This document shows, piece by piece, positions 4,207 through 64,000 of a stretch of 64,000 nucleotides of DNA. Position 1 is the stretch's first letter; each line of letters starts with the position of its first letter. The position numbers were made by a program, and so were the translations under genes. Source of the DNA: an uncultured Methanosarcinales archaeon (lineage in GTDB: Archaea > Nanobdellota > Nanobdellia > Woesearchaeales > UBA525); NCBI GenBank assembly GCA_964589765.1, contig CAZPUM010000001.1, forward strand, positions 29,118 through 93,117, written 5' to 3'. The notes under the pieces are model-generated. The model was not told where the DNA came from. It was given only the letters and a program-made list of their open reading frames with translations, and did not search any database.

Positions 4207-4281
4207 TACCTGTTTTATAAGAAACTGTCTTTTAAATTATACTGTGGAAAACCTTATGAACAACCACGCGAAGGCCACTCC

Positions 4282-20723: not shown

Positions 20724-20810
20724 GCCATAATAGTAAAAAAGCACTCATATAAATATTCTGTAACAAGAAAATTACATAATAGTTAATAAGGGCAATCCCC
20801 GCACAATATT

Positions 20811-21224: not shown

Positions 21225-21311
21225 CCTCATCCCTTCTGTGTCTTAATACGGCACTCACCCAGTATCTGCGCATTCGCTTGATACATGAGCGCCTCGGATT
21301 TTATTAGGAAT

Positions 21312-21335
21312 TAGAATAAAAAAAAAGAAAAGTGG
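21312..21335 (-). terminator. Oligo-T archaeal terminator after the five-gene cluster.
   Basis: A(9)GAAAAG on the plus strand equals a T-rich run on the minus strand immediately after the stop of the 21340..22317 gene. Confidence 0.4.
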
Positions 21336-21339
21336 AGAA

Positions 21340-22317: not shown

Positions 22318-22326
22318 TTTTCCACC

Positions 22327-23646
22327 TTATACTATTCTTTTAATTTGTACTTGTCTCTGTTGTGTCTGACTGTAACCATACCACAACTCTACAACAAGTG
22401 GTGCTTGGTATGCCGACTTAAGGTTGGCAAACTGAAGCGGATATGAACATGTTGTGGTTCCCCTTTCTGTCTTGGGATCCAATCTTATGACTTCAGGACT
22501 ACACTCGATTCCACCACGACCGCCACGGCCTGAAAGACCCAGTGTTCCAACTCTGACGTCACCAAGATAAACAATATTCTTGTGTTCAGGAGTAACTCTT
22601 CCAGGATAGTAGGGACTACACCTTTCAAGGTGACCTGCATCCCAGACCGTTCCGGAACCTACATTCTGAACATTAATTCTGAAAATAATCTTTTGCGGTG
22701 TGTTTTCCTGCTCAATGCTTGTGATTGCTACAGGAGCGCCGTTTCCTCCGTTCCATGTTTTACTCTGAGGATAGCAAACCTTTCTTATGTCAGAGTAAGG
22801 GTCAGGGTCTATACAGACAATCGGGTCTGCGTATGTTGTGTACTGGTAGCACGTTGTCAGCAAGAAACTCTGAACTGTCTGGTCAAGACCAGGAGGCCAG
22901 TTCACAATCTTTCCATTGTAAAGCAGATAATCTGTTTCGCCTCCTGGAAAATTATAGTCGTCCGCCGCCAGGAGGAATTCACGGCCGTTATGAATTCTGT
23001 AGTCAATCCCCGCGAGAAGCGCGATGAAAAGACGGCCGTTCTGATAATATTCAACGTTTCCAAGAATATTGTCTATGTTGAATGAGAACACTGAGCCAGA
23101 GGGGCTATCTGTATAGTCTATACCAATATCGAACTTTGTGGGGTCCCACCAGGATGAACCATGCCTACCAGAGATTGCGTTGATTAAATCAGCCAAACTG
23201 TCTAACCTGACTCTGGCTGTGTCCCCCCCGTAGTTTACCTCTAGGCCGTCACACCTGAATATACCTCCGTAATCTCCAAATCCTATGTTTCCGAATGTGA
23301 ACCCGCATGCACCTATGCCTCCTTCAGTTATACTGATTTCGTCAAAGACAAGTAGACTTGGGTCGAACCCGCTAACAAAAATTCCTCCTCTAGTATACGA
23401 TGCTCCTTTGTTTTGTAGGGCAACTCCGAAAGAGAACTCATTGTTTGAGTTATCCTGGGGACCATAATAGTACAGTCTCTGAGGAAGTCCTTCAAAATAT
23501 GATTCAACTCCTTCCTTACCTTTATAGTAATTTGCGTACTCGTTAATTCTATTATTATCGTTACCGCCTGAACCACACGCCGTCACTAAGAACATAGTTG
23601 AGACTAGCATCAGAAACAACACCAACCTGTTCTTCGTCATCACCAC
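22327..23646 (-). CDS. Secreted lipoprotein (lipobox VTAC), paralog family member B.
   Basis: Signal peptide plus lipobox. Shared module ...TTCYQYTTYADPIVCIDPDPYSD...NGAPVAITSIEQEN. Confidence 0.6.
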   Translation of the reverse strand: MVMTKNRLVLFLMLVSTMFLVTACGSGGNDNNRINEYANYYKGKEGVESYFEGLPQRLYYYGPQDNSNNEFSFGVALQNKGASYTRGGIFVSGFDPSLLVFDEISITEGGIGACGFTFGNIGFGDYGGIFRCDGLEVNYGGDTARVRLDSLADLINAISGRHGSSWWDPTKFDIGIDYTDSPSGSVFSFNIDNILGNVEYYQNGRLFIALLAGIDYRIHNGREFLLAADDYNFPGGETDYLLYNGKIVNWPPGLDQTVQSFLLTTCYQYTTYADPIVCIDPDPYSDIRKVCYPQSKTWNGGNGAPVAITSIEQENTPQKIIFRINVQNVGSGTVWDAGHLERCSPYYPGRVTPEHKNIVYLGDVRVGTLGLSGRGGRGGIECSPEVIRLDPKTERGTTTCSYPLQFANLKSAYQAPLVVELWYGYSQTQQRQVQIKRIV

Positions 23647-23688
23647 GTCGATACACTCCCGTTCTGAATTTTTAAATGTTCCGTCGAT

Positions 23689-25476
23689 TTAGCAAGAGAT
23701 AAAACCAAAGTAATCACCAACAACCAAATCTTGTCTTGAAACAGTTCGTTTTGCGACTGTATTTCCAACATTGCCTCCTACTATCTCCACTTTGTCTCCC
23801 TCTATACTAGTAATAATGTCGCAATGACTTGTAACGCCCGGCGCATAAGGATCAGTGTAACTTATAGGACAGCTGGAGCCTCTACAATTGCATACAATGT
23901 CACCAACTTTAATCTTTGATACCTCTTCAACTCTAAGAGTTCTACAACTACCTTCACCGCCCCTTACTTTTGTAAAGTACTCCCAGTGGTTACAACTTCT
24001 AGGGAAATTAACACCTGATTTACCCATTACATATGATATGTATGCTGCAGACCAAGGAGTTCCTCCACAAGTCCCAGAGCAACCTCCCGCTCTAAAGTAA
24101 TCTGCGACCCTGCCACTCACAGCAGAATCACACTCAGACCTTCCTCCAAAGTAATTATACTCATCAAGAGCTATTTGGCCTATTCGATTTGTTGAAACTG
24201 TTGTTTCCCTTGTTTTATCGCAACAGTAGGTTCCAGGCCTGCAAAGACCGACAATACACTTGCCTGAGCTGGCAAGCGCCAGACACGCATCCCTGCTACA
24301 AGAGCAACTGAACTCTGGATTTATTCTGTCCTGTATCTCTGAAGGCGCTTTATCAGGGTTCTCAGCGTAGTACCTACACTCTGTGTAAACAGTTCCATAA
24401 TCGTCAACAACAGGCTCCTCTCCTTGGTACATGACGCCTGTTTCTTTACCATAAGGTTCTAGGTCATTGGGAGTTATGTCAGGTCTTTCAGTTCCAGGTA
24501 TTCTGTTAACTTCCAGCGTTTTTGTCGTTGCGGTCTTGTACATGTAAGTTAGGTTAACAATCAGAACAGACTGAAAGTTCTGCTTACTGGCATAGATAGG
24601 GTCATTAAGATTATTGCTTGGAACAGTGCACCTAGCTACACCCTCGCCATCAAACATTTTGATTAGTTCACCCGGCTGACACTCAAGTTTGGTGCCCAAT
24701 AACCAAGCGTCCAGCTTAACTGTGTTTATCTGTTCAGAGGGGATTCCCTTAAGGAAACATGCTGTGTCCATAGGAAGTGATGCAGGACCAATAAGTCTGC
24801 CATCCCCAACATCTCTAAAATGAATTGTAAAATGTGGCCTTATTGATTCAGTGCCTAGCAGATTATCAACAACAGGGAAACTCTGAACCTCAATATCGGT
24901 TACTGTTATTGGAGCGCCTTGACCATTCGAGAAAGACACGTCTTGCTGTACACAAGGTTGTTCTCTTTCGTTTGCGTAGTACACATTTGTATCAATACAA
25001 ACATCAGATGTTGCAAGAGTGTTATACTTGTAACAAATACTTGCAGCAAGGTCTGTTTCAGGTTTTTGACGAGTTCCATAAACGGGTTTTACGAAAAATG
25101 AATAGAATGCAGGGACTGAGAATATCTTTTTCTCACCATCAGGCCATCCTAAAGAACGCCCCCTTATCAGTTCGCTCTCAGGATCATGTATGGTGGGCTC
25201 GTACTGCTGGACCTCTACAGGAATGTTAATGTACAACGGGTCTCCTGAGAATGTTATTAGCAAGTCATCATAATGAACGTTTGCCGCACCCATATTGTGA
25301 ACGCCTAATTTTACAGGGAAAGGTGTGTTTTCGTACACGGCATCAGGTGGTGCGTTTGATGCAAACTCAGGCACTAAACCGTTTTGTCCTTCGTAAGGGT
25401 TGTAGTTCTCCATACTTCCCCCCCTACACGAAGTGAGCATAAGAACCATTACTAACATGAGAATCCAGAATCTCAT
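23689..25476 (-). CDS. Secreted lipoprotein (lipobox LTSC), paralog member C, with a Cys-rich linker and a C-terminal NlpC/P60-CHAP-like cysteine peptidase domain.
   Basis: Shared module ...SICYKYNTLATSDVCIDTN...QGAPITVTDIEVQ. C-terminal GGCSG...AAYISYVMGKSGVNFPRS (Cys motif), GDIV, SHCDIITSIEGDKVEIVGGNVGNTV (His motif). Confidence 0.6.
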   Translation of the reverse strand: MRFWILMLVMVLMLTSCRGGSMENYNPYEGQNGLVPEFASNAPPDAVYENTPFPVKLGVHNMGAANVHYDDLLITFSGDPLYINIPVEVQQYEPTIHDPESELIRGRSLGWPDGEKKIFSVPAFYSFFVKPVYGTRQKPETDLAASICYKYNTLATSDVCIDTNVYYANEREQPCVQQDVSFSNGQGAPITVTDIEVQSFPVVDNLLGTESIRPHFTIHFRDVGDGRLIGPASLPMDTACFLKGIPSEQINTVKLDAWLLGTKLECQPGELIKMFDGEGVARCTVPSNNLNDPIYASKQNFQSVLIVNLTYMYKTATTKTLEVNRIPGTERPDITPNDLEPYGKETGVMYQGEEPVVDDYGTVYTECRYYAENPDKAPSEIQDRINPEFSCSCSRDACLALASSGKCIVGLCRPGTYCCDKTRETTVSTNRIGQIALDEYNYFGGRSECDSAVSGRVADYFRAGGCSGTCGGTPWSAAYISYVMGKSGVNFPRSCNHWEYFTKVRGGEGSCRTLRVEEVSKIKVGDIVCNCRGSSCPISYTDPYAPGVTSHCDIITSIEGDKVEIVGGNVGNTVAKRTVSRQDLVVGDYFGFISC

Positions 25477-27272
25477 CTGACCATCACCTGTGTTGCAGCC
25501 TCAATTGTGTAACTGTAATAAGCCACAGCTATAATGCTTCTCTCTGTTTTGTCTGCCTCGCTGATTAATGGGTACAAATCAGCACCTTCACGCACACCAA
25601 GTTTACAAGTTATGCTTGTATAAGTGGTAATTGGACCTGCATTCTTGTTTTCAAAGACATAGTTAGTATAATCTGGTTCGAATGGGTCAGGCTCCTGTCT
25701 ACACTCGTTAGGATTGTTCTCGCACCTATCACATTCGTAAAGTTCGAACGGTTCAGGCACCTTGAGTTCTATTTTGTTAACTTGATTTAGTTGACCGCTC
25801 CCCCACCCAGGGTCTAGAGTTAAACCGATTCTTGTTCCTGCGGGGATTGGGTTTTCCTCGGCCGGATTAATCCTGATTGGCTGAGGAGTGCCTCCCATTC
25901 CTATCTTTAATGGTCCCGCCGTGAAAATGGCGGTTGGATTAGGATCGATATCCAGAACATCTCTTACATCCAGGCCTTGCCTGGCAAGGTTTCTTGCCCT
26001 TTCATCATCTACAAAAGAGAATGTTATGTATGCCCAGGTCTGGAAAGGGAATGTTGCGAAAGATTTGATTCTGTAAGTTCCCGTTTCATCTATAGCACCA
26101 AATTTACACTCATATACCCCTGCAGTACCAAGAACAATATCGAGTATTTCGGGATCGACACTTGCCTCTTCAGTAATGGCTCGCCTATCAATCACACAAG
26201 ACGGAACAACCTTCAAAGAGTCTTCGTCATCTATGAATGTTTTTGCGTAGATTGTTCCGTAAACTGATAAGGGCATGTCTGTCGTGATAGTTCTATCAAT
26301 AGGCCTTAAATCTTCAAACTTAACACCTATGTCTGCCTCAGCATTATCTTCTACCCGCCCAGTATAATAAGCACCAGGGTTCAGGGTTTCATTTATTGTT
26401 CGGCCTATGCCTGAACCTATGTTTGTGAAAGCCTCGACAAAAGTATCAAACATATTTATTGCCGAGCCAGAAACATCCAACCCTCCAACCCCTACGATGG
26501 GCATGGTTGACAATGTCGGGAAGAAAATCAGACCAAAGAATAACACGATGAAGGATATCATCAATAATATTTTGTATATTCTGAATATCTTTGCTGCAGT
26601 TTCACTTGCCTGAGACAGTCTTTGTAACATGTAGATTGGCCAAACAGGAACAATGACTGCCAAGAAAAACAAAGCTCCGTGAATATTCTCGCTCCATGTG
26701 AACGCCTCTGCAACAGCAGGCATACAGTACATTACCGCACCTGCCAAAGAAACAACAAAAATTGACTTCTTACTCGTGTCACCAATTGCAACAATATAGG
26801 TTAGTCCTAAAGCGGACATCACAGCAAAGTATGTTATGAATGAGGCTGTTGAAGCACCAAATCTGAAAACAAAAATTACAAACAAGTGTATAAGTATTGA
26901 AATTATGAAAAAAAGAGTCGGGCCTCCTGTAAGAGCGTCAGCTGTCACGTTACCCCCTACGTTCAGTAGTTTTTTACCACCTGCCTTTCCCACTGCCCCC
27001 GCACCTTTTGCCAGACCTGAAATAGCATCTTTCAGAGTTGAACGCGCCTCGCTTATCCCTTTTTCAGCCTTTAAGTCATCTGAATGAGAATCACCTGATG
27101 GAACAGAAGGAGTGGCAATTGACGAAGAACCTTCTCCAGTTCCTCCGTCCGTTTTTACATCAATATCTAGCTCCACTTTGTTTCCATCTTTACTTACTTC
27201 AGAACCAACAGGACCTTTTAGCTTAGCCTCAACTTCCTCTCTTAGCTTCTCTTCTTCGTCAGCCATGCTCAC
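25473..27272 (-). CDS. Polytopic membrane protein (about 5-6 TM helices) with an acidic/K-rich cytoplasmic N-terminus and an extracytoplasmic C-terminal domain of about 330 aa.
   Basis: Hydrophobic helices span aa about 125-330. The C-terminal domain carries a related Cys-containing motif (YECDRCENNPNECRQEPDPFEPDY...GPITTYTSITC). Overlaps flanking genes by 4 bp. Confidence 0.55.
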   Translation of the reverse strand: MSMADEEEKLREEVEAKLKGPVGSEVSKDGNKVELDIDVKTDGGTGEGSSSIATPSVPSGDSHSDDLKAEKGISEARSTLKDAISGLAKGAGAVGKAGGKKLLNVGGNVTADALTGGPTLFFIISILIHLFVIFVFRFGASTASFITYFAVMSALGLTYIVAIGDTSKKSIFVVSLAGAVMYCMPAVAEAFTWSENIHGALFFLAVIVPVWPIYMLQRLSQASETAAKIFRIYKILLMISFIVLFFGLIFFPTLSTMPIVGVGGLDVSGSAINMFDTFVEAFTNIGSGIGRTINETLNPGAYYTGRVEDNAEADIGVKFEDLRPIDRTITTDMPLSVYGTIYAKTFIDDEDSLKVVPSCVIDRRAITEEASVDPEILDIVLGTAGVYECKFGAIDETGTYRIKSFATFPFQTWAYITFSFVDDERARNLARQGLDVRDVLDIDPNPTAIFTAGPLKIGMGGTPQPIRINPAEENPIPAGTRIGLTLDPGWGSGQLNQVNKIELKVPEPFELYECDRCENNPNECRQEPDPFEPDYTNYVFENKNAGPITTYTSITCKLGVREGADLYPLISEADKTERSIIAVAYYSYTIEAATQVMVR

Positions 27273-27281
27273 CTCAAACCA

Positions 27282-28553
27282 CTATACTATCTCGAGCTTG
27301 AGCTCGGCCACATCCAGGCGGTCAACGTGCGGCGCAATCTGAATAGTGTTCGGGCCAGGATTTATTATTCCTGGGTCAATGACCGCCTGCCATACATAAT
27401 CCTGCGTGCTGAAACTCTGAACAAATCCGTTCACCACAACCTCGCCTGATTTTACATTTCGATAATCTGTGAACGTCATGGTAAGAACCAATTGACCATA
27501 GCCAAGGTCGATTCCCTCATACATTTCCATTGGCAGATTGAAGTAATACACAGGGTAATCAGACTGTCGCATCTCTAAGGTCAACTTGATGTTGTCAACG
27601 ACATACTGTCCTCCCTGGACAGCAGCCATGAAAAGTCTGTTTTCTCCAACCCTCAGATACTCTTTTGGAACATCTGTCTTGAACCGGACTCCACAGTCCA
27701 CAAGACCTGTGTAGAGTATGTTTGGTACTGTGAATGTGTTATTGTCAGAATCCCTGACAAGCCTGTCGTTTAAATGAACGACCAACCTGCCTGCGTTGCT
27801 CGGGTCACAGTCAGGAATAAATTCAAGCTGAGCTGCTCTGAAAGCACCTATCTCTTCCTCAGAAACACTGAAAGTTTGTTCACTCACACTTCCTGACTGG
27901 TCAATAACGTCCGCACTTATCTGAATGTTTCTTAGCTTATACGCATTTGGTTGCCAGAATGCAAGACCTGTATCGTCTGTCTGGAGAGTTATAACATTCT
28001 CTCCTTCAACAAAGTAGTCTGTTGGCAACTGAATTGGTGGCGGGCTTGGTTCTCTAATGGGCCTTTCGTAAATCTGGTTTCCATTGATAAGAATCCTTAA
28101 AGGTCCTGAACCCGCCTCTTCTAAACTGAAGCTCAAAAGATAGTTTCCACTCCCCTCTTTTCCCGGAGTGAATGGTATCGACATGTCTTTCTTTGCAAAA
28201 ATACCATTCTTTACAATTCCTGAGTCTATAGATTTCACAACCTGTGTGTTGATTCTTGTGAATATTGTTGAAGTAGGAATATTATGTTCTTGTATCGGAC
28301 TCCTCAGAAATCTCAGAGTCCCCGGGGTCTCTGTAAGTACCAAAACTGGGCCATACTGCGTGAAGCTTCCGCCTCCTGAACCACCTCCCGACCAGGACTG
28401 GCCACCAAACCCCCCATCACCACCAAAAAGCAACTGGTCACGTTCGGCAGGAGGAAGGAATAAGATATAGAGCAGAAGGAAACCTGCTATGATTGCAATC
28501 AAGACAGCTGAGCCCGAAGCAGTCTGTCCCCGTCGAGAGCCTCCACCTAACAT
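27282..28553 (-). CDS. Signal-anchored (single N-terminal TM) surface protein with a Gly-rich linker and repeated beta-rich segments.
   Basis: N-terminal TM AVLIAIIAGFLLLYILFL; GGDGGFGGQSWSGGGSGGGS linker; three xVxxNGxx-type repeats. Confidence 0.5.
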   Translation of the reverse strand: MLGGGSRRGQTASGSAVLIAIIAGFLLLYILFLPPAERDQLLFGGDGGFGGQSWSGGGSGGGSFTQYGPVLVLTETPGTLRFLRSPIQEHNIPTSTIFTRINTQVVKSIDSGIVKNGIFAKKDMSIPFTPGKEGSGNYLLSFSLEEAGSGPLRILINGNQIYERPIREPSPPPIQLPTDYFVEGENVITLQTDDTGLAFWQPNAYKLRNIQISADVIDQSGSVSEQTFSVSEEEIGAFRAAQLEFIPDCDPSNAGRLVVHLNDRLVRDSDNNTFTVPNILYTGLVDCGVRFKTDVPKEYLRVGENRLFMAAVQGGQYVVDNIKLTLEMRQSDYPVYYFNLPMEMYEGIDLGYGQLVLTMTFTDYRNVKSGEVVVNGFVQSFSTQDYVWQAVIDPGIINPGPNTIQIAPHVDRLDVAELKLEIV

Positions 28554-39778: not shown

Positions 39779-41443
39779 ATGAAGAAGGGAAGCCCTCCTA
39801 TGCCTGTCTTATTGGTTTTGGCCACGTCTCTCTTAGTTGCGGGCATTCTGACCACTTACACTGCAGGAATCTATGCCTCTACAACGGTGTTTGGAGTGGG
39901 AATTCTACTGTTCTTCGGCATAGCACTTTACAATACAAAGATAGATGCGGGAAAACCCACAGCAATAGTCAGCATAACCGTTGCTGTGGTGTTGGCCATA
40001 ATTATGGCATCAACATTGTTCACAATTGTCCAGACTACCATTCCTGTCTGCGGTGATGGCATTTGCGCACCGTACGAGTGCGACGAGAATTGTGAAGACT
40101 GCACTCCTGACGATTGTCTAAACGGCATATGTCAAAGACCACTTGAGACTTGCGAGAACAGCCCTGACTGTTCTTGTCCGGGCGGAACTATCTGTGTTCC
40201 GGAAAGACCGGGAGTGGACCCTACAGGTTGCTTCTGGATTAAGTGTGGCGACAATTATTGCGACAAAGGAGAGTCCTCAAAAAACTGTTGTTCCGATTGT
40301 AAATGCGAAGCAGGGTATGAATGTAGACAAAATCAATGTTTCTTTTTACCGCCTAAGATGGCTTTCAACACTTTCCTTTTCAGCGATGAAATCGGTGCCA
40401 GCACTTTAGCTGCCAACCCCAACCTGAGAAATGAATCAGGAACCCCCCACCCCTTGGTGGCATTGGATTTGACAAACCAAGGAAGCTTCGCATCAGATGT
40501 TAGAGTCAGATTCAAGCTAGATGAGGTTTTTGAAGAGAGTTTTTCAGTGGGTTCTATGGATAAAGGAGACAACAAAGATGTTTTGTGGTTCCTTGACGAA
40601 ACCCCTCTTTATCTCTCGATTGTAGAAGATATTGATACAAACATAACTGTGACTGTAGAGTACACGACAACTGAAAATATTAGGAACTCTTTCAGCGTTA
40701 ACTATCCAATCAAAATTTTAAACAGAGGCAAACTTGATGATATTGGGGAGCTCGCATACTACGTAACCAAGGATATCAAACCAAATGGTAAAACCATAGA
40801 TATGATTTGGGAAGAATACAGAAAACAACTAGAACTCAGACCTAATGATGGAATTATTCAGTATCCTTTAGAGACTCTTATTTATGGCGGAGGCGACGAT
40901 AAAGACTTAGCCGTTTTCTTTGCCAGCGCTTTTTATGGTGCGGGAAAAATTACCCAGTTTGCCAACACAACTGATGGGATGATGCTTTGGGTAAGGTACA
41001 GAGGTAATTACGAAGTACTTGATACAAGACACGTTGACTTAAATTTTGCTAAGGCGCTTGACTCGCGACCGGAACGTACCACATTGAGCAGTTTCGATGA
41101 GGTTTGGGAAATGCACAGCATAGAACCGACAACATTTGACGCGAGAATGCTTCCTGGAATGAAAATAATCTCCTCATCAGAGGTTAGCCAGGAATGTGAC
41201 TGTGTAAGCTATTGCGGTCAAAAGGTTGAAGCAATCCACAAGATTATCAACCGAGGCTTGGTTAAATCAAAACTCTGCGCCAAATCTACAATAGAACTTA
41301 ACGATGAAATTCTCAACCAAAAAGAATGGTGTTTTTCTGTAAGCCCCGAACATTTAATCTCACTAGAACACCTATGGAAAAGCAACTCAACATGTCAAGA
41401 TGTTGATGTAGAAATCAAAGTGTGGAACGCTACCTTTTCATGA
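39779..41443 (+). CDS. Membrane-anchored (3 N-terminal TM) Cys-rich surface protein with CGDGIC-type repeats and a C-terminal globular domain.
   Basis: Three TM helices. Repeats CGDGICAPYECDENCEDCTPDDC.../...CKCEAGYEC. The C-terminal region has transglutaminase-like spacing (AVFFASAFYGAGKI...MMLWVRY) without an obvious catalytic Cys. Confidence 0.55.
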   Translation: MKKGSPPMPVLLVLATSLLVAGILTTYTAGIYASTTVFGVGILLFFGIALYNTKIDAGKPTAIVSITVAVVLAIIMASTLFTIVQTTIPVCGDGICAPYECDENCEDCTPDDCLNGICQRPLETCENSPDCSCPGGTICVPERPGVDPTGCFWIKCGDNYCDKGESSKNCCSDCKCEAGYECRQNQCFFLPPKMAFNTFLFSDEIGASTLAANPNLRNESGTPHPLVALDLTNQGSFASDVRVRFKLDEVFEESFSVGSMDKGDNKDVLWFLDETPLYLSIVEDIDTNITVTVEYTTTENIRNSFSVNYPIKILNRGKLDDIGELAYYVTKDIKPNGKTIDMIWEEYRKQLELRPNDGIIQYPLETLIYGGGDDKDLAVFFASAFYGAGKITQFANTTDGMMLWVRYRGNYEVLDTRHVDLNFAKALDSRPERTTLSSFDEVWEMHSIEPTTFDARMLPGMKIISSSEVSQECDCVSYCGQKVEAIHKIINRGLVKSKLCAKSTIELNDEILNQKEWCFSVSPEHLISLEHLWKSNSTCQDVDVEIKVWNATFS

Positions 41444-56450: not shown

Positions 56451-56590
56451 ATTGGATATCTCCAGCGCAGAACTATCTCAGAATCAACGGTTGTCCGTCG
56501 TACTGAAACGCATCCCGCGCCAGGCGTGGACAACAGGGTCCCGGCCCGTTTCCAGACGGGTCACTCTCCTGTGTTCATATCGCGGAAACG

Positions 56591-56618
56591 CCAAACCGTT
56601 TATAAAGGTGTTGGTTGG
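56591..56618 (-). promoter_or_regulatory. Ribosomal superoperon promoter: TATA (TTTATAAA) embedded in a palindromic 28-mer about 150 nt upstream of uL3; coordinates approximate.
   Basis: CCAAACCGTTTATAAAGGTGTTGGTTGG, nearly identical to the element at about 37487 upstream of eL34. Confidence 0.45.
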
Positions 56619-56920
56619 TGTCAAGCCACCCTTGGAAACTCCCGAATTTGGTCATATTCGACGGGAATGGGTTCGCCTTCATCAGGGTCAGGGCCATCCC
56701 ACATTGGCCTAGAGGCAGGGGCCAAAAAAACATACTGAAGTGGGAAAGGACTGTACAGCTCATAAAAACCTCCTGGAGTGCAGATTCGGGGCTTTGGATA
56801 AAATTGAGAGTTTAATTCTCTCTGTAAATCAACCTCTGACCTAAAGGTTGGAAATAGCGTAGTGAAAACAGAGTTGGCAAACTTTCCAATATCCATAAGA
56901 TAACAGGAGTTACCCGGGGT

Positions 56921-57583
56921 TTATTGGTGTTTCGAAACCCAGTTGACAACCGCTGAGACCATCGCATCTCTTTTTTCCAGATTATTGAAGTTATGGCCTG
57001 CCCCACCTATTATACATAGTTCCTTCTCCCCCTCAATTCCGAGGAAAAGTTCTTTGGCATCATCCAAAGGAACGGCAGTGTCCTCGGAACCGTGAACAAT
57101 CAGAACTGGACATTTGATTTCAGAGGCTCCTGCCAGAACATCCAGTTCTGCTCTCTGCTCGAAAAAATCCTTCTCAATAACAAAGTGGACATCCTTGTCC
57201 TCTCTGTGCCAGTCCACTTTCCCTTGTTTTTCGAGCTGTTCTCTCTGCTCAGCACTGAGTAACCTCAGAGGGTCCCGCAGTTCTGCGGGGCTTGCCAGAG
57301 AGACCACCCCTTTTACTTTCTCGCTTGACTGTGCTACGAGCAACGATAATAGTGCTCCAAGGGAGTGCCCAAGCAGAATCACATAGTCATGATTCCCCAC
57401 CTCTTCGATTAATTCATCGAGCATAGTCATTGGAGGGGTCTGGAGAAACTTGTTTTCATCAAGCGGTTTGGGGTAGTTCATAACCACCACTCTGTGTCCT
57501 TTTTCCCTCAGTGCTTTAACGCAGGAACCTATTGTTCCACTCTTGTCATTACTTAGAAACCCGTGGCTTGCTATGATTACCAT
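56921..57583 (-). CDS. Alpha/beta-fold hydrolase (esterase-like).
   Basis: Nucleophile elbow GHSLG; catalytic His and Asp regions (VHGSEDTAVP). Confidence 0.75.
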   Translation of the reverse strand: MVIIASHGFLSNDKSGTIGSCVKALREKGHRVVVMNYPKPLDENKFLQTPPMTMLDELIEEVGNHDYVILLGHSLGALLSLLVAQSSEKVKGVVSLASPAELRDPLRLLSAEQREQLEKQGKVDWHREDKDVHFVIEKDFFEQRAELDVLAGASEIKCPVLIVHGSEDTAVPLDDAKELFLGIEGEKELCIIGGAGHNFNNLEKRDAMVSAVVNWVSKHQ

Positions 57584-58169: not shown

Positions 58170-59696
58170 TCATTTCTTCTTACCTATCTTCACCAATTTC
58201 ACGGAGTATTGGGCAGGGTTTTTTATCGTTTGGCATGTTTCATCCGGACGGCAAACCCCTAATTCCTGGTAGAACGCTTTACAGTTGGGGGGAGGAAATC
58301 TTTCCTTTTGACGTTTTTTGGAACGTAAGTGTGATTTCAATTCGACCTCTTTCAGATGCTCTGCGTTACACTCGTTCCATTTATCCAATCTTTCCTCAAT
58401 CATTTCGTGACTCCACCCACACACTTTAAGGAAATTTGTAAGAACAAACATCGCCCTTTTCCTTCCGTCAGAGAGCCCTTGTAGTATCAACTTAATACAA
58501 GGTGGAAACAACTCTTCAGGAATCGCTTCATCTGGAACTTCAAACTCTCTCTTTTCGTACTTTGCCTCTTTACTCTCCTGTGTTGACCATGCTAAACGGC
58601 AAAGATTTTCAGCTTCATCAGGAACGACTTTTTTCGTATCCAAGAAAGTCTTTTCAAAATTAATTTTTTCAGGTTCCGCGTCTGTTTTCTTGAAAGTTAG
58701 AACATCTTCTATTTCAACAACTATTCCTGACAAACCTGATTTTTCGTGAAGACTGTAAGGCATCCTGTAAAGGTGTCTGCTCGCCAACAGGACTGTGTCG
58801 ACTTCGACAATCTCTGTGATTTTCAATCGCGGTTCTGTTGGCCCTGTTGCTTCAGTTCTGCTGAGCGAGTAAAAATCCATCCAACCGTTGCACTTAGAGC
58901 ATACTCGCTCAGAATCTTCAGCCATCTCTTTTTCGTTTTGGCTGAATCTTTTTTCTGGTCTGTTTCCACACGAAGTACAGTGGAGTTTGTACAGACCTTC
59001 TTCTTTATTCACAAACTTTTTTGTTTTTGGATTGTAGTTTCCGATTAAGTCTTGTTTTGTTTTTCCGCATTTTTTTGCCAGCTCATTTATCGATGTTTTT
59101 ACTAGTCCCCCTAGTAGGAGTTCATCTTTGTTTATTTTGACCAGGTTGTTTTTTGAATCTCCTATGTAGTCTATCAAAAACTTTGCAATAGCTCTTGGCA
59201 TTTCGGGGAAAAGATTTTTCAGCACTATCTCTTCACCATCATCCGTTACAATCTTTTCAGGAAAAGATTCCCATGGAACACCTATGTGCCATCCTTTATT
59301 TCCTGAGAACTTAACTGAGACGCCTTTGATGTTATGCGCTTCCAATGCTTTAATGAAAAGCCATGCCGTTAATCTGGATATCTCCCAGTCTTTCGCATCG
59401 ATATCAAGAACTAGGTCCCATCCTATTCTCAGTTCGTCTGCTTCCTTTCTAGACATTCCTGTTTGAATTAGCATAGGGTTATCCCATCTCTCTTCAGAAC
59501 AGTGGAAGCTTGTTGTTTTTCTCTTCGCAAACTCCAGAACATCTTGGGGAAATGATAGAACGTCAGGCCTTTTCCCGAACCCTGTTCCATACCTTGGACT
59601 AACTTCGCGGTTTTCCGCATGTCTTACAAGTGCCTCTTGTACCTCGGGACGCTTGTAGTATTTCAGCGTCTTTGAGAACTGCTCCACATCCCCCAT
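58170..59696 (-). CDS. priS: Single-polypeptide DNA primase: a PriS catalytic domain fused to a PriL-like C-terminal Fe-S domain.
   Basis: Archaeo-eukaryotic primase motifs DLVLDID (DxD) and FSGNKGWHIG (SGxRGxH); a zinc knuckle (CTSCG...CSKC). The C-terminal approx. 140 aa carry the PriL-CTD-like Cys set (PPCIKLILQG...C...C...C). Confidence 0.65.
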   Translation of the reverse strand: MGDVEQFSKTLKYYKRPEVQEALVRHAENREVSPRYGTGFGKRPDVLSFPQDVLEFAKRKTTSFHCSEERWDNPMLIQTGMSRKEADELRIGWDLVLDIDAKDWEISRLTAWLFIKALEAHNIKGVSVKFSGNKGWHIGVPWESFPEKIVTDDGEEIVLKNLFPEMPRAIAKFLIDYIGDSKNNLVKINKDELLLGGLVKTSINELAKKCGKTKQDLIGNYNPKTKKFVNKEEGLYKLHCTSCGNRPEKRFSQNEKEMAEDSERVCSKCNGWMDFYSLSRTEATGPTEPRLKITEIVEVDTVLLASRHLYRMPYSLHEKSGLSGIVVEIEDVLTFKKTDAEPEKINFEKTFLDTKKVVPDEAENLCRLAWSTQESKEAKYEKREFEVPDEAIPEELFPPCIKLILQGLSDGRKRAMFVLTNFLKVCGWSHEMIEERLDKWNECNAEHLKEVELKSHLRSKKRQKERFPPPNCKAFYQELGVCRPDETCQTIKNPAQYSVKLVKIGKKK

Positions 59697-59810
59697 GATA
59701 TGGTTGACGCGTTTCCACTCATAAGGATTGCGACTGACCAGTGTAATACTTCTATATAGAAATAAATTATATTGGCAAACCATTTTATACAGCCGGGAAG
59801 CTTCTTTACC

Positions 59811-60938
59811 ATGCGAACTGCAAAAGTTCTCATCTTTTCTGGCATGGACAGCAACATGCGCTACGCAACAGGCCTGTGTTTACACGAGTCTTTCATCTGG
59901 GTCAGATACGGAGAAGGTAAATCTGCCAAAGAGTATATTCTTGTCAACAGACTAGAATTCCCGACCGTGAAAAAAGAGGCAAGAAAAGATATCAAAGTTA
60001 TCTGCTGGAATGATTTGGAGCTCGATAACATAAGAATTCCTAAACAAAGAAAGAAAAATCTTGCAGACATCGCGTCTTCTTTTCTTCTAAGTTACAATGT
60101 TGATGCAATTCAAGTTCCTGACAACACATGGGCAATACACATGGAGACTTTCAAAGAGCACAACCTCATCGCTAAACCAACCCAACCCTTTTTTCCTGAG
60201 AGAATAATCAAACGTAGCGATGAGGTGTTGGCCATCAAACAGACTGGCAAAGTTACCAAGATGGCCTTCAAGCACACCGTGAAAATACTCCGCGAAGCGG
60301 AGATTCAGTGGGACGATAGTCTCACATGGAACGGTGTGAAACTCACATCCGAATTTTTACAGAACGAAATAGAGAAGGTTTTCATCGATAACGGTTGTTC
60401 GTCTGGAGAATCAATTGTTTCCTGCGGAGAACAATCATCCGAACCTCATAACAGAGGGTCGGGAACTCTGAAAGCAGGCCACCCTATCGTCGTAGATTTA
60501 TTTCCAAAAGACAACAAGACAGGGTACTATTTTGATATGACCCGTACAATAATCAAAGGAACCCCCACCCCTGAGTTAAAAAATATGCTTCAAACTGTGA
60601 AAAGAGCCCAAAAAGAGGCGCTTGAACTGGTCAGACCTGGACCGGCAGAACATGTTCACCTTGCCGCCAGAAAAATTGTTGAAAGAGCAGGATTCAAGAC
60701 GACCGATGAAGAAGGGTTCCTTCATAGCACAGGGCACGGTGTGGGCGTAGATTTGCACGAACCCCCGAGAATAGGAGATAAGTCAGAGGATATTCTCGAA
60801 CCTGGAATGGTCATTACAGTTGAGCCGGGACTTTATTACAAAGAGCACGGCGGGGTCAGGATTGAAGACACAGTTCTTGTTACAAAAAACGGATACAAAA
60901 ATCTGACAAATCTTCCTAAACTATCCATTTTAAGATAA
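59811..60938 (+). CDS. M24-family metallopeptidase (Xaa-Pro aminopeptidase or dipeptidase).
   Basis: Pita-bread fold motifs (HSTGHGVGVDLHEPP, VEPGLYY, GVRIEDTVLVT). Internal ATG chosen to avoid overlap with the primase gene. Confidence 0.85.
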   Translation: MRTAKVLIFSGMDSNMRYATGLCLHESFIWVRYGEGKSAKEYILVNRLEFPTVKKEARKDIKVICWNDLELDNIRIPKQRKKNLADIASSFLLSYNVDAIQVPDNTWAIHMETFKEHNLIAKPTQPFFPERIIKRSDEVLAIKQTGKVTKMAFKHTVKILREAEIQWDDSLTWNGVKLTSEFLQNEIEKVFIDNGCSSGESIVSCGEQSSEPHNRGSGTLKAGHPIVVDLFPKDNKTGYYFDMTRTIIKGTPTPELKNMLQTVKRAQKEALELVRPGPAEHVHLAARKIVERAGFKTTDEEGFLHSTGHGVGVDLHEPPRIGDKSEDILEPGMVITVEPGLYYKEHGGVRIEDTVLVTKNGYKNLTNLPKLSILR

Positions 60939-61041
60939 CAATATTTTAAAGGAGAAAAACCGCTGTTATGTTATCCCTGGAACGACTAATAATCGGTTAC
61001 GCGGACATTCTTACCAGGGGGATTTATCGCACTTTTCGGAG

Positions 61042-61395
61042 GTGAACATGGAGCTGGAGCAGATCTATACAGAGATAGACAACGTCAGAACCAAAACAGT
61101 TCTCGTCGAAGGACGGAACGATAAACGAGCACTGGAGAAGCTCGGGTTCACGAACATTGTTCCATTGTCTGGGCCGTTGTACCAGATGGTGGAAAAGGTT
61201 GAGGATGAAGATGAGGTACTTATCCTCACAGACCTGGATAGCCACGGCCGAAGGCTTTACAGGTACTTCTACAACGAACTGACAAAGCGAGGAGTTAGAA
61301 TTAACAACCGCTTACGACAGATGTTATTCGGCACTCATATCAGGCAGATTGAGGGTTTAGACAACTACCTCAGACGACTCGAAATGATGGCGTGA
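61042..61395 (+). CDS. Small Toprim-domain protein.
   Basis: Conserved Glu (VLVEGRNDKRALEKLGF) and DxD (ILTDLDSHG) of the Toprim fold. Confidence 0.7.
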   Translation: MNMELEQIYTEIDNVRTKTVLVEGRNDKRALEKLGFTNIVPLSGPLYQMVEKVEDEDEVLILTDLDSHGRRLYRYFYNELTKRGVRINNRLRQMLFGTHIRQIEGLDNYLRRLEMMA

Positions 61396-61574
61396 CCGCT
61401 CTGAGGAGCCGGCCATTTCTATAGGGGGACCCTCGCGCAATTTTTTCAAACCCACATCTTGTATATGCCAATTTTATTGATAGTATCTCTAAAAATCTGT
61501 ACGCGATATTGTAAGATATTACTATTTCTCAAAAATACTGGAAATCTTATAAATCTCGTCTGTAAAAAACCCTT

Positions 61575-62387
61575 GTGGACTGGAAAATAATCTTGTTAAT
61601 CATAGTAGGAATAATTCTGCTCATAGCATTCCTATTCAGAAAACAGATTGGACATTGGTCCTCCGCGCTGGTCCATGACTATGTTTATGACTGGGGTCTT
61701 TCAACACTTGACAACTTAATAGGAGGTTTCGCAGGTCTGGATGTTGGAGACTGGGTTGGAGCTTTTCTTATATTCAGAGGTGAGAAAAAAATTATTGGAA
61801 CCCTGCCTGCATTAATTGTTGCATGGGAGGCCACCAACTTTATTCCACTCAGTTTTATTCCTGTGGTCGGAGAGGGAATTGAAGTTGTAACTAACATTAT
61901 ACCTGCATCGACCATCACAAGGTTTTTAGTCGCAAAATATGGCCCAGCTGAACGAATGGAAGTGCGCTTGATGGAAGAAGGCGCTGTTATGAAACAAGAA
62001 AACATCAATGTCCCTGACTTTGAAGGGGCTCTAAACCATATCAAGGAGTTAATTGACAAGAACAACCCTGTCGAGGCATACGCTATGGAGAAGGCAATTG
62101 ACAAAGCTGTCAGCCAGAAACTCAGAATCAAGATTGACAAACTTGTCAATCAAGTAGACGGTGAAATACAGCAGTTGATTCAACAAGACCCTGAAGGAAC
62201 TGATGACCAGCTCGAGGTTCTGACAAAAGGGATAGAACTGGCCAGAACACACCTTAATGATGCCAAGCTTTTTGAAAAAAAGAAAAATTTCGCCAGCGCA
62301 ATCAAAAAAGCAAAAGAGGCTCAGAGCGTGCTCAGTCAGTCTGTTGACGCTTTCAATGAATCACTGAGCATGGAGAAAGCCGCATGA
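61575..62387 (+). CDS. Hypothetical membrane protein.
   Basis: An N-terminal TM helix plus two or three more hydrophobic segments and a C-terminal coiled coil. A TATA-like tcttataaatc sits about 25 nt upstream. Confidence 0.4.
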   Translation: MDWKIILLIIVGIILLIAFLFRKQIGHWSSALVHDYVYDWGLSTLDNLIGGFAGLDVGDWVGAFLIFRGEKKIIGTLPALIVAWEATNFIPLSFIPVVGEGIEVVTNIIPASTITRFLVAKYGPAERMEVRLMEEGAVMKQENINVPDFEGALNHIKELIDKNNPVEAYAMEKAIDKAVSQKLRIKIDKLVNQVDGEIQQLIQQDPEGTDDQLEVLTKGIELARTHLNDAKLFEKKKNFASAIKKAKEAQSVLSQSVDAFNESLSMEKAA

Positions 62388-63313
62388 AACCTCTGATTTT
62401 ACTAACGATTTTGTTGCTGATAACCTCTTGTACCACAGAGAGTTTGCCCGAGGAGAAAACAATAATTGGACCTAATGATATCAAAATCCAGGAGAGCAGA
62501 AATCTGCAGAAAGGGGTCGCTGGAATCACTCCTAAAAACAATTACAGACCGAGCGACGAAGACTGGAATGATTACTTCTCAATGCTCGGAGAGTATGGCC
62601 CTCTGTGGGGAGTCTATGTTAACATAGAGGACAGCTTACAAGAGGGCATACCTCAACAGGTGCGTCTTGCTTACGAACTGGCAAAAATGCGTCCAGTCAC
62701 ACCTGTTGTTGCTCTGGGTTTCCAGAACGATATAGAAAAAGGATTTTTTGAACTGAACGGTCTTAGGTATCAGGAAACCGTTTTAGCTGTCGCAAAAGAG
62801 TACCACCCCGCCTATCTTGGTCTTGGTATTGATGTTAACAGGATTCCTGACGAAGAGTTTGACAACTACCTTAATTGGTACAAAGATACATACAATGAAG
62901 TGAAAAAAGTCAGTCCCTCCACTAAAATATTTCCAATCATTCAGTACGAACATTTACTTAACAGTCAGGAAGATGACTGGCTAGAGGAACTCGAAATGGA
63001 TGTTTTTGCCATAACCTTGTATCCTTTCCTTGCTTTTGATTCACCCGCTGATATTCCTCGTGACTATCTACCTAATGATGTGCCAATCTTAATCACGGAA
63101 ACTGGCTGGCCATCTAGCGAGGTTGGTCGAGTCCAGCCAGCACAGACTGAATATATTGACTGGCTTTCAACAACACCGACAAATGTTGAAGCTGTTTTGT
63201 GGAGTTTTTCGCACGACCCTATGTTAGGAGATAAAACGTGGGATTCAATCAGCCTAAAGTTCTCTAATGGAACTATGAAACCCGCGTTCAATAAATGGCA
63301 GAGTTTGAATTAA
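62384..63313 (+). CDS. Secreted lipoprotein (lipobox ITSC) with a GH5/GH17-like (beta-glucanase-type) TIM-barrel glycoside hydrolase signature.
   Basis: Signal peptide plus lipobox. Catalytic-nucleophile motif ILITETGWPS typical of GH17/GH5 clan A. Putative acid/base Glu region upstream. Confidence 0.5.
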   Translation: MKPLILLTILLLITSCTTESLPEEKTIIGPNDIKIQESRNLQKGVAGITPKNNYRPSDEDWNDYFSMLGEYGPLWGVYVNIEDSLQEGIPQQVRLAYELAKMRPVTPVVALGFQNDIEKGFFELNGLRYQETVLAVAKEYHPAYLGLGIDVNRIPDEEFDNYLNWYKDTYNEVKKVSPSTKIFPIIQYEHLLNSQEDDWLEELEMDVFAITLYPFLAFDSPADIPRDYLPNDVPILITETGWPSSEVGRVQPAQTEYIDWLSTTPTNVEAVLWSFSHDPMLGDKTWDSISLKFSNGTMKPAFNKWQSLN

Positions 63314-63326
63314 CAGCTCAGGAAAA

Positions 63327-63974
63327 TTACTTTGAATCCGGATTGTTAATGTATTTCTTCTCAGCAATCTCCTTGATTCGTTGTGCTTTCTTAGGACCTA
63401 TCAAATCAACCTCTTTTAGTTCTGTTTCACTTGCCTGAAGAACACCTAATATTGAACCAAATCTTTCCAACAAAGGTTTAGCCAGATGACTTCCCACCCC
63501 TGGAAAAGCAGCAATGATATACTCTTGTAACTCCTTATCAGACAGAGGTTTCGATGTGTGATACTGAAACTCCTGACCGCCTATCTGTTCGCGTTTGGCA
63601 AGAGCGATTAACAGTCCAACTGTTTCTTTTGAGTTTCTAGACCAAAGAATAGGAATGTTGTAAGACACAGCAATAGTTGCCAGCATACCCCTTATAGCAT
63701 TAGGATGCACCCTTCTTACTGAGTATATGTCCTGCGTCCCTTCAACAAGAATTATCGGGCGCGTATATTGTCGCAGAGCCTTAAGTTGTTCAAGCAATCT
63801 GCCATCAAGTATGCTATTAACAAAGTCAGGAACCTGCTTGTATTCAACAACAACTCTGTCGGAAACCTGAAAATCCCCAACTGACAACTGTTGTAATTCA
63901 AGATTGACTCCTGAGTCAAGTATCTCTTTCAGAACAGGACTTCCTTTTTCTCGGTAATCTGCAATAATCTTCAA
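63327..63974 (-). CDS. xpf: XPF/ERCC4-type nuclease (short archaeal form with a C-terminal HhH2 domain).
   Basis: ERCC4 nuclease motifs (IADYRE...GDFQV...ERK-like) and a helix-hairpin-helix C-terminus (AFPGVGSHLAKPLLERFGS). Confidence 0.7.
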   Translation of the reverse strand: MKIIADYREKGSPVLKEILDSGVNLELQQLSVGDFQVSDRVVVEYKQVPDFVNSILDGRLLEQLKALRQYTRPIILVEGTQDIYSVRRVHPNAIRGMLATIAVSYNIPILWSRNSKETVGLLIALAKREQIGGQEFQYHTSKPLSDKELQEYIIAAFPGVGSHLAKPLLERFGSILGVLQASETELKEVDLIGPKKAQRIKEIAEKKYINNPDSK

Positions 63975-64000
63975 ACTTTTTGCTTGTACCTGATTTTTTT

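What the first reader, a model, noticed from the sequence alone, without database searches (positions are those of the whole stretch)
58170..59696. Primase small and large subunits fused in one polypeptide
The N-terminal two-thirds carry PriS motifs (SFHCSEERW, DLVLDID, FSGNKGWHIG, a zinc knuckle). The C-terminal approx. 140 aa carry a Cys arrangement resembling the Fe-S domain of PriL (PPCIKLILQG...C...C...C). This PriS-PriL fusion is compact and characteristic of highly reduced archaeal genomes such as the Nanoarchaeum type. It is useful as a lineage marker and for primase mechanism.
Basis: partly seen in the sequence, partly recalled or inferred. Interest (0 to 1): 0.55.

Follow-up and report, generated by a model that had tools for sequence, protein, structure and literature searches.

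The report
Single-chain DPANN archaeal DNA primase

Summary

More than 3,400 homologues exist. The closest named ones are Woesearchaeota. The literature (Iyer 2005 via Raymann 2014; Dombrowski 2020; Schneider 2023; a 2026 preprint) already describes this monomeric primase as a synapomorphy of DPANN cluster 2 plus Undinarchaeota, and the Nanoarchaeum enzyme NEQ395 has been characterised biochemically.

- Only the PriL C-terminal domain is present, not whole PriL.
- The "zinc knuckle" is a lineage-specific Zn-ribbon insertion between motifs II and III, absent from NEQ395-sized relatives. It is not the canonical PriS knuckle.

Verdict: already known, low interest.

The parts
58170..59696 (-). Complete CDS of the monomeric primase (508 aa plus stop codon at 58170-58172)
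   Evidence: ORF. Identical to the NCBI protein P0001. Aligns end to end with 49 homologues. AF2 model has mean pLDDT 90.
58632..59696 (-). PriS-like AEP catalytic domain (aa 1-355), including the insertion listed below
   Evidence: Foldseek against PDB matches human, yeast and Pyrococcus PriS, Prim-PolC and the LigD polymerase domain at E 2e-6 to 1e-3. Weak Pfam PF01896 and PF21686 hits. The profile aligns the RHLYRMPYSLHEKSG segment to human Pri1.
59484..59510 (-). SFHCSEERW (aa 63-71), a family-specific conserved block with invariant H65
   Evidence: S63, H65, S67, E68, E69 and W71 are invariant in A1. By spacing H65 corresponds to NEQ395 H58, which is needed for binding the elongating nucleotide (PMC10250227). 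This mapping is an inference.
59397..59417 (-). AEP motif I, DLVLDID (aa 94-100); metal-binding D98 and D100
   Evidence: D94, D98 and D100 are invariant. They fit the hhhDhD/E motif defined in PMC10250227.
59280..59309 (-). AEP motif II, FSGNKGWHIG (aa 130-139); S131, K134, H137
   Evidence: In A1 S131, G132, K134, G135 and H137 are invariant. In A3 G132, G135 and H137 stay invariant, S131 is >=90% conserved and K134 varies (R in P0241). Fits the sxH motif. Same spacing as NEQ395 S119/K122/H125.
58827..59138 (-). Lineage-specific insertion (aa ~187-290) between motifs II and III; its Zn ribbon has C240/C243 and C266/C269 (58890-58979)
   Evidence: Absent from nine family members of 394-431 aa. 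C240, C266 and C269 are invariant and C243 is >=90% conserved among long forms. Weak profile similarity to eL43- and Rpb12-type zinc ribbons. pLDDT is 73-94 by 10-residue block.
58737..58805 (-). AEP motif III and nucleotide-binding segment EVDTVLLASRHLYRMPYSLHEKS (aa 298-320); D300, H308, R311
   Evidence: D300 is invariant in A1 and >=90% conserved in A3. R307, H308 and R311 are invariant. Spacing is identical to NEQ395 D194/H202/R205, all of which are essential. The segment aligns to the human Pri1 NHLLKSPFSVHPKTG segment.
58509..58610 (-). Interdomain linker (aa 363-396): helix 363-383 plus loop
   Evidence: DSSP on the AF2 model. Poorly conserved and variable in length in A1. Analogous to the NEQ395 linker helix, whose length affects primer-length distribution.
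58197..58508 (-). PriL C-terminal [4Fe-4S] domain (aa 397-500); Cys400, 472, 482, 488; R412, R414, F417
59697..59810 (.). Divergent intergenic region shared with the M24 peptidase gene; A/T-rich TATA-like element at about 59751-59770
   Evidence: Read from the sequence. Promoter function is inferred only.

Best explanation
This is the replicative DNA primase of a Woesearchaeota-type DPANN archaeon. It is a single polypeptide. An archaeo-eukaryotic primase catalytic (PriS-like) domain is tethered, by a helical linker, to the [4Fe-4S] C-terminal domain of PriL. The PriL N-terminal domain and a separate PriL gene have been dispensed with.

Proposed mechanism, inferred by homology to the characterised Nanoarchaeum enzyme NEQ395:
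- D98, D100 and D300 bind the two catalytic metals.
- H65, S131, K134, H137, H308 and R311 hold the elongating NTP.
- The tethered PriL-CTD (R412, R414, F417) holds the initiating NTP or 5'-triphosphate end and the template. This allows dinucleotide formation in cis.
- The linker length helps set the length of the short RNA primer.

The Zn-ribbon insertion (aa ~187-290) is an extra module of the long, Woesearchaeal form. I guess that it contributes to template DNA binding.

Shown here: domain identities, conserved residues, family membership and genomic context. Inferred: activity, Fe-S binding and the roles of individual residues.
For: - Intact ORF, identical to an NCBI protein.
- PriS fold: Foldseek E 2e-6 to 1e-4 to human, yeast and Pyrococcus primase catalytic subunits.
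- Motif I, II and III residues are invariant or near-invariant across long and short family members.
- Four cluster cysteines plus the R-x-R...F helix are conserved, with the same local spacing as the NEQ395 residues shown by mutagenesis to matter.
- The family has more than 3,400 members. Those with names are Woesearchaeota or Nanoarchaeota. There are 287 representatives at E <= 1e-30.
- Chromosomal context is conserved in three other Woesearchaeota contigs, next to the ribosomal-protein operon.
- No other PriS or PriL in the window.
- SUF Fe-S assembly genes are in the same window.
- Literature: fused primase in all DPANN cluster 2 and Undinarchaeota (PMC7414124). NEQ395 is an active monomeric primase with a [4Fe-4S] cluster (PMC10250227).
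Against: - No biochemical data exist for this protein.
- The PriS domain is so divergent that Pfam PF01896 (16.2 bits against 26.8) and the NCBIfam PriS and PriL equivalogs are far below their cut-offs.
- The rest of the genome could not be searched for a separate priS or priL, because the contig is not in the look-up index.
- I never held the NEQ395 sequence, so residue equivalences rest on motif spacing.
- In NEQ395 the Fe-S cluster was dispensable in vitro, so its role is unclear.
Confidence: 0.93

Rival explanations
1. Same function but a different origin. The gene is not an in-situ fusion of the host's priS and priL. It descends from a monomeric AEP primase of a mobile element or virus that displaced the two-subunit primase in the ancestor of DPANN cluster 2 plus Undinarchaeota.
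For: - The catalytic domain is far from canonical PriS: Pfam PriS is below its cut-off.
- It lacks the canonical post-motif-I zinc knuckle and the PriL N-terminal domain.
- It scores better against a viral primase family (phrog_16345, E 4e-12) than against Pfam PriS.
- The 2026 preprint argues for a mobile-element origin. Plasmid pTN2 carries an independently fused PriS-PriL (PMC3973330; PMC3914693).
Against: - No relative was found in 50,697 phage and archaeal-virus genomes or in IMG/VR by pattern scan.
- Dombrowski 2020 place the split halves with PriS and PriL, with the fusion at the base of the clade.
- The PHROG match covers only motifs I-II (aa 83-147).
- The gene sits in conserved chromosomal synteny.
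Confidence: 0.35
2. It is the replicase or primase-polymerase of an integrated plasmid or virus (pRN1 or pTN2 type), serving that element rather than the chromosome.
For: AEP-plus-PriL-CTD/PriCT-like fusions are typical of archaeal plasmids (PMC3973330). There is a weak PHROG primase hit.
Against: - No helicase domain and no integrase or other element genes nearby. The neighbours are housekeeping genes: an M24 peptidase, a Toprim protein and the ribosomal-protein operon.
- The same gene order occurs in three other Woesearchaeota contigs at 57-73% primase identity.
- GC content is unremarkable.
- Raymann 2014 found no sequence similarity between the pTN2 primase and the DPANN primases.
Confidence: 0.03
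3. It is a repair-type AEP (LigD polymerase domain or PrimPol) acting in end joining or damage tolerance, not in priming replication.
For: Pfam LigD_Prim-Pol hit at E 1e-3. Foldseek also lists Prim-PolC and LigD polymerase domains.
Against: - The LigD hit is below its cut-off (19.1 bits against 27.4), and those Foldseek hits reflect the shared AEP core.
- A PriL-CTD Fe-S domain, which supports de novo initiation, is attached.
- No Ku or ligase neighbours.
- The orthologue NEQ395 is the only primase of N. equitans and is an active primase.
Confidence: 0.02

Closest known systems
NEQ395, the monomeric PriS-PriL primase of Nanoarchaeum equitans (Schneider, Bergsch & Lipps 2023, PMC10250227)
   Same: Single chain with the same order: AEP catalytic domain, helical linker, PriL-CTD with four Cys. 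The same local spacing holds for all residues shown by mutagenesis to matter: DxD, SxxKxxH, D..H..R, C..RxR..F and C..C..C. There is no PriL N-terminal domain.
   Different: The window protein is 508 aa against 393 aa. It carries a ~100-aa insertion with a Zn ribbon between motifs II and III, which NEQ395-sized relatives lack. I did not align it directly with NEQ395, because I did not hold that sequence. It comes from a Woesearchaeota-like genome with no indication of thermophily.
Fused priS-priL of DPANN cluster 2 / Undinarchaeota ('Nanostetteria' primase; Raymann 2014, Dombrowski 2020, bioRxiv 2026)
   Same: It belongs to this family. The closest relatives are Woesearchaeota MAG proteins at 57-65% identity with full-length coverage.
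   Different: Nothing essential. Within the family it has one Zn site in the insertion, where roughly three quarters of the aligned long forms have two.
Canonical heterodimeric archaeal/eukaryotic primase PriS-PriL (e.g. P. abyssi 9f26, S. solfataricus 5of3, human 4rr2)
   Same: Same catalytic fold and acidic triad. The same Fe-S domain carries the FPPC and PPNC..C..C cysteine motifs.
   Different: - One chain instead of two.
- The PriL N-terminal (PriS-binding) domain is absent.
- The canonical zinc knuckle just after motif I is absent.
- Sequence divergence is so high that the curated PriS and PriL models fail their cut-offs, apart from PF04104 on the CTD.
PolpTN2 of Thermococcus nautilus plasmid pTN2 (PMC3973330)
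   Same: Also a PriS-like domain fused to a PriL-CTD-like domain.
   Different: It is plasmid-encoded, is a primase-polymerase, and is reported to have no sequence similarity to the DPANN primases (PMC3914693). Not compared here.

Membership tests
Monomeric PriS-PriL(CTD) primase of DPANN cluster 2 / Undinarchaeota (NEQ395 type) | One polypeptide with an N-terminal AEP (PriS-like) catalytic domain | tested here: met
   AF2 model has pLDDT 90. Foldseek hits PriS of human, yeast and Pyrococcus at E 2e-6 to 1e-4.
Monomeric PriS-PriL(CTD) primase of DPANN cluster 2 / Undinarchaeota (NEQ395 type) | AEP motifs I (hhhDhD/E), II (sxH) and III (hD/E) intact | tested here: met
   D98 and D100, S131 and H137, and D300 are present and invariant or >=90% conserved in 49 + 12 aligned sequences.
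Monomeric PriS-PriL(CTD) primase of DPANN cluster 2 / Undinarchaeota (NEQ395 type) | C-terminal domain homologous to PriL-CTD | tested here: met
Monomeric PriS-PriL(CTD) primase of DPANN cluster 2 / Undinarchaeota (NEQ395 type) | Four conserved cysteines able to bind a [4Fe-4S] cluster | tested here: met
   C400, C472 and C482 are invariant. C488 is >=90% conserved in A1 and invariant in A3. Actual cluster binding cannot be tested here.
Monomeric PriS-PriL(CTD) primase of DPANN cluster 2 / Undinarchaeota (NEQ395 type) | PriL N-terminal domain absent; the domains are joined by a helical linker | tested here: met
   The PF04104 match covers only profile positions 83-219 of 266, on aa 371-493. 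Helix 363-383 lies between the domains.
Monomeric PriS-PriL(CTD) primase of DPANN cluster 2 / Undinarchaeota (NEQ395 type) | Sequence relatedness to the fused primases of these lineages | tested here: met
   Full-length hits at 41-65% identity, named Woesearchaeota or Nanoarchaeota where a name exists. GTDB loci are Woesearchaeota MAGs. Short, NEQ395-sized members align over both domains. No direct alignment with NEQ395 itself was made.
Monomeric PriS-PriL(CTD) primase of DPANN cluster 2 / Undinarchaeota (NEQ395 type) | No separate canonical priS or priL in the genome | tested here: inconclusive
   None in the 64-kb window, judged by the family HMM on all six-frame ORFs and by Pfam scans of 30 ORFs: ten neighbours and twenty other large ORFs.
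Monomeric PriS-PriL(CTD) primase of DPANN cluster 2 / Undinarchaeota (NEQ395 type) | Monomeric, de novo RNA primer synthesis | not testable with these tools
   Shown only for NEQ395 (PMC10250227).
Canonical archaeal PriS (PF01896 / TIGR00335) | Score above the curated family threshold | tested here: not met
   PF01896 16.2 bits against 26.8. TIGR00335 20.2 against 143.5. The protein is homologous in fold but is not a member of the curated family.
Canonical archaeal PriS (PF01896 / TIGR00335) | Zinc knuckle immediately after motif I | tested here: not met
   The sequence after DID is AKDWEISRL, with no Cys or His cluster. The human CPKCW segment aligns there. The position of the canonical knuckle is from my own knowledge of the human p49 and Pyrococcus PriS structures.
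Canonical full-length PriL (NCBIfam PRK02249 / PRK03968 equivalogs) | Full-length match including the N-terminal PriS-binding domain | tested here: not met
   Matches lie within model positions ~189-338 and score 27-31 bits, against cut-offs of 339-479.
LigD polymerase domain / Prim-Pol (PF21686) | Score above the Pfam gathering threshold | tested here: not met
   19.1 bits against 27.4. The structural hits reflect the shared AEP core.

The most novel reading that the evidence does not exclude
The ~100-aa Zn-ribbon module inserted between catalytic motifs II and III (aa ~187-290) has one Zn site here and two in most long homologues, and it is absent from Nanoarchaeum-sized enzymes. It may be a previously undescribed template-recognition domain. 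It would be functionally analogous to the zinc-binding domain of bacterial DnaG or T7 primase, and would give Woesearchaeal monomeric primases their own priming-site specificity. The repeated loss of the second Zn site would then mark functional divergence within the family.
Probability: 0.2. Interest if true: 0.45.

Novelty: already known. Interest (0 to 1): 0.2.

Why it matters
The feature confirms that the window comes from a DPANN cluster 2 (Woesearchaeota-like) archaeon, and it provides a correct annotation for a protein that carries no name in the source searched.

The monomeric primase is an established lineage marker and a tractable minimal model of eukaryote-type primases. This particular gene adds nothing new to that picture. 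The possible exception is the Zn-ribbon insertion, which distinguishes the long Woesearchaeal form from the characterised Nanoarchaeum enzyme. I did not find this insertion discussed in the papers I read.

Tried and rejected
- Rfam and tRNA scans of the window, to fix the lineage: no hits.
- The look-up of encoding contigs for the exact protein, to reach the rest of the contig: not on record. The listing of cluster members gave no name.
- The GTDB scan did not return the window's own genome, only 57-73% relatives.
- The afdb50 library was unavailable, so I could not pull the AlphaFold entry of NEQ395.
- No supplement text was held for the NEQ395 paper, so no direct alignment with NEQ395 was made. 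P0241 (394 aa) was tested as a possible NEQ395 and is not it.
- The search for viral relatives (INPHARED tblastn, IMG/VR pattern scan) was negative.
- The longer 537-aa start at 59783 was considered and rejected.
- The weak family-HMM hit to ORF 3559-4236 (E 0.0085) was not examined further. I assume it is a chance match, perhaps to a cysteine-rich stretch.

Full report

The ORF listing shows a single long ORF on the minus strand, 58170..59783, 537 aa from the first ATG. This shorter product is identical, over its whole length, to a protein already deposited at NCBI (P0001, from a 101,316-bp contig). The N-termini of the 49 aligned homologues start within about ten residues of it. Using 59696 also leaves a 114-bp divergent intergenic region before the M24 peptidase gene, and that region contains an A/T-rich TATA-like element (promoter function is only inferred).

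All quoted strings are present:
- SFHCSEERW, aa 63-71
- DLVLDID, aa 94-100
- FSGNKGWHIG, aa 130-139
- a CxxC...CxxC pair at C240/C243 and C266/C269
- PPCIKLILQG, aa 398-407, followed by C472, C482 and C488

**2. What the two halves are**

*N-terminal part.* At sequence level it is very divergent. Pfam's PriS model scores 16.2 bits (cut-off 26.8) and LigD_Prim-Pol scores 19.1 bits (cut-off 27.4). The NCBIfam PriS equivalogs are far below their cut-offs. An AlphaFold2 model built on a 49-sequence alignment is confident: mean pLDDT 90, pTM 0.73. Foldseek against the PDB returns 47 hits at E <= 1e-3, and all of those listed are AEP catalytic domains. These include human Pri1 (4rr2_C, E 2.3e-6), yeast Pri1, P. 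furiosus, P. abyssi and P. horikoshii PriS, and the related Prim-PolC and LigD polymerase domains. A family profile aligns the RHLYRMPYSLHEKSG segment to human NHLLKSPFSVHPKTG.

The three AEP motifs as defined in PMC10250227 are intact and conserved. D98 and D100 (motif I) are invariant. H137 (motif II) is invariant, and S131 is invariant in A1 and at least 90% conserved in A3. D300 (motif III) is invariant in the 49-sequence alignment and at least 90% conserved in the 12-sequence one. R307, H308 and R311 are also invariant.

*C-terminal part.* PF04104 (primase large subunit) scores 31.3 bits, above its gathering score of 22.4. It covers aa 371-493 and only profile positions 83-219. Five NCBIfam PriL equivalogs hit within aa 358-503 at E about 1e-7 to 2e-6, but far below their full-length cut-offs. 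A profile of the isolated domain (A2, 25 sequences) finds P. abyssi PriL (9f26_B) at E 7.4e-10. The alignment lies exactly over the FPPC and PPNC...C...C cysteine motifs.

The putative cluster ligands C400, C472, C482 and C488 are invariant or nearly so, as are R414 and F417. The PriL N-terminal domain is absent. A helix (aa 363-383) and a loop connect the two domains.

**3. Is there a separate PriL or PriS?**

HMMs built from the two halves were run against all 724 six-frame ORFs of at least 40 aa in the window. They find only this gene. The A2 profile detects a canonical PriL at about 42 bits, so a canonical PriL in the window should have been seen. Sensitivity for a canonical PriS is lower, at about 17 bits. 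Pfam scans of ten neighbouring ORFs and twenty other large ORFs found no primase domain. The rest of the genome could not be reached, so this criterion is met only for the window.

**4. Family and lineage**

The word-indexed search gives 3,433 homologues at E <= 1e-3 among the 8,000 candidates scored. The best are 41-65% identical over the full length and typically 500-560 aa. Most carry no name; those that do are called Candidatus Woesearchaeota or Nanoarchaeota archaeon. The exhaustive search of 50%-identity representatives gives 712 clusters at E <= 1e-3 and 287 at E <= 1e-30. The closest GTDB genomes are Woesearchaeota MAGs, one of them mislabelled Methanosarcinales, at 57-73% identity.

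In these three contigs the local gene order is the same as in the window. The M24 peptidase is divergent from the primase, followed by a small Toprim protein. An HhH/Hef C-terminal gene lies beyond that in the two longer contigs (L001, L002). In the same two contigs the L3 ribosomal-protein operon lies on the other side. The gene is therefore chromosomal and vertically inherited at this scale.

**5. What is already known**

Raymann et al. 2014 (PMC3914693) credit Iyer et al. 2005 with noticing the fusion in N. equitans. They extended it to Nanohaloarchaea and Parvarchaeota.

Dombrowski et al. 2020 (PMC7414124) showed that all DPANN cluster 2 lineages, explicitly including Woesearchaeota, have the fused gene. 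So do Undinarchaeota. Cluster 1 keeps separate priS and priL.

A 2026 preprint (10.64898/2026.06.17.729505) builds a phylogeny of this "monomeric primase". It treats it as the synapomorphy of a clade it names Nanostetteria, and argues for an origin from a mobile element.

Schneider, Bergsch and Lipps 2023 (PMC10250227) characterised NEQ395:
- It is monomeric and brown, with a [4Fe-4S] cluster.
- It is a highly active primase that prefers templates with a triplet centred on T and makes primers of about 9 nt.
- The PriS part alone extends primers but cannot initiate.
- R301, R303 and F306 in the PriL part are needed for initiation.
- The linker length affects the primer-length distribution.
- The Fe-S cluster is dispensable in vitro.

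**6. Mechanism proposed for the window protein**

The published NEQ395 residue numbers have the same local spacing as the invariant residues here and in a 394-aa relative, P0241.

| NEQ395 residues | Window residues |
|---|---|
| D87 / D89 | D98 / D100 |
| S119 / K122 / H125 | S131 / K134 / H137 |
| D194 / H202 / R205 | D300 / H308 / R311 |
| C289 / R301 / R303 / F306 | C400 / R412 / R414 / F417 |
| C364 / C376 / C384 | C472 / C482 / C488 |

From this I infer two-metal catalysis in the PriS domain. The initiating nucleotide and template would be bound by the tethered PriL-CTD acting in cis, and primer length would be set partly by the linker. These steps are inferred by homology, not shown. 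The window also encodes a SUF Fe-S assembly set (SufB, SufD, a SufS-NifU fusion and an Mrp/NUBPL-type ATPase), so a supply of clusters is plausible.

**7.

The protein is 115 aa longer than NEQ395. I aligned it with nine family members of 394-431 aa. The extra length is essentially one insertion, about aa 187-290, between motifs II and III. The short forms lack it completely.

Its position differs from the canonical PriS zinc knuckle, which in human and Pyrococcus PriS follows motif I directly (my own knowledge; consistent with the human CPKCW segment aligning just after DID). No such knuckle exists here.

Among the 49 long homologues, about three quarters have 7-10 cysteines in the insertion, arranged as four CxxC-type pairs, which implies two Zn sites. 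The window protein and about ten others keep only the inner pair of pairs. I did not find this insertion discussed in the papers I read. That is the only mildly novel element, and I did not establish its function.

**8. Rivals**

*Integrated plasmid or viral replicase.* This is unlikely. There are no helicase, integrase or element genes nearby. The neighbours are housekeeping genes, synteny is conserved and GC content is unremarkable.

*Repair-type AEP.* This is unlikely because a PriL-CTD is attached and no Ku or ligase gene is nearby.

*Evolutionary origin (in-situ fusion or replacement by a mobile-element primase).* This remains open. The catalytic core matches a PHROG primase family (E 4e-12, aa 83-147) better than it matches Pfam PriS. 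However, no relative is present in 50,697 phage and archaeal-virus genomes or in IMG/VR by pattern scan.

**9. Verdict**

The feature is a textbook marker of this archaeal group and the protein sequence is already public. Novelty: already known. Interest: low (0.2).

Noticed in passing
window 58827-59138 (primase aa ~187-290): A ~100-aa insertion with a Zn ribbon lies between AEP motifs II and III. It is absent from 394-431-aa family members. Most long homologues have two Zn sites here, while the window protein has one. I did not see it discussed in the papers read.
   Followed up: partly
window 59811-63686; loci L001, L002, L003: The gene order Hef-C-terminal/HhH gene, small Toprim protein (61048-61395, PRK04017-like 'hypothetical'), M24 Xaa-Pro peptidase, then the divergently transcribed primase is kept in L001 and L002. 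The short contig L003 keeps the Toprim, peptidase and primase part. The L3 operon lies on the other side in L001 and L002. A Toprim-only protein this close to the primase may be coincidence, or it may be a functional link.
   Followed up: partly
proteins P0173, P0203, P0209, P0233 (not in the window): Some family members of 883-1019 aa carry inteins with LAGLIDADG homing-endonuclease domains inserted within the primase.
   Followed up: partly
protein P0123 (769 aa); window 56921-57583: One homologue has an alpha/beta-hydrolase domain fused to the C-terminus of the primase. In the window a separate alpha/beta-hydrolase gene lies two genes downstream of the primase. Another homologue (P0085) is annotated with a GrpB domain.
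   Followed up: no
window 13684-19119: A SUF iron-sulfur assembly cluster: an Mrp/NUBPL-type ATPase, an ABC-ATPase-like ORF at 14486-15220 (possibly SufC; not scanned), a SufS-NifU/IscU fusion protein of 541 aa, and two SufBD-core proteins (272 and 473 aa). It is relevant as the likely supplier of the primase's cluster.
   Followed up: partly
window 19749-28553 and 39779-41443: A run of large ORFs (324-597 aa), almost all with no Pfam match; one (23689-25476) has a DUF2272 domain. Several have lipoprotein-like or signal-like N-termini. They may be surface proteins of a DPANN cell.
   Followed up: no
window 1-64000; gap 56451-56920: No tRNA gene and no Rfam family hit at gathering thresholds anywhere in the 64 kb. 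The 470-bp stretch between the L3 gene and the hydrolase gene holds only a 91-aa ORF with no family match.
   Followed up: no
window 63327-64000 (-): The ORF fragment matches the C-terminal HhH part of the Hef/XPF nuclease (NCBIfam E 1e-30). The gene may continue upstream, possibly beyond the window end.
   Followed up: no
locus L002 (CAZIKW010000003.1): A contig labelled 'uncultured Methanosarcinales archaeon' carries a Woesearchaeota-type monomeric primase (57% identity) with the same neighbouring genes. This suggests a mislabelled or contaminated MAG, as the 2026 preprint notes for other bins.
   Followed up: no
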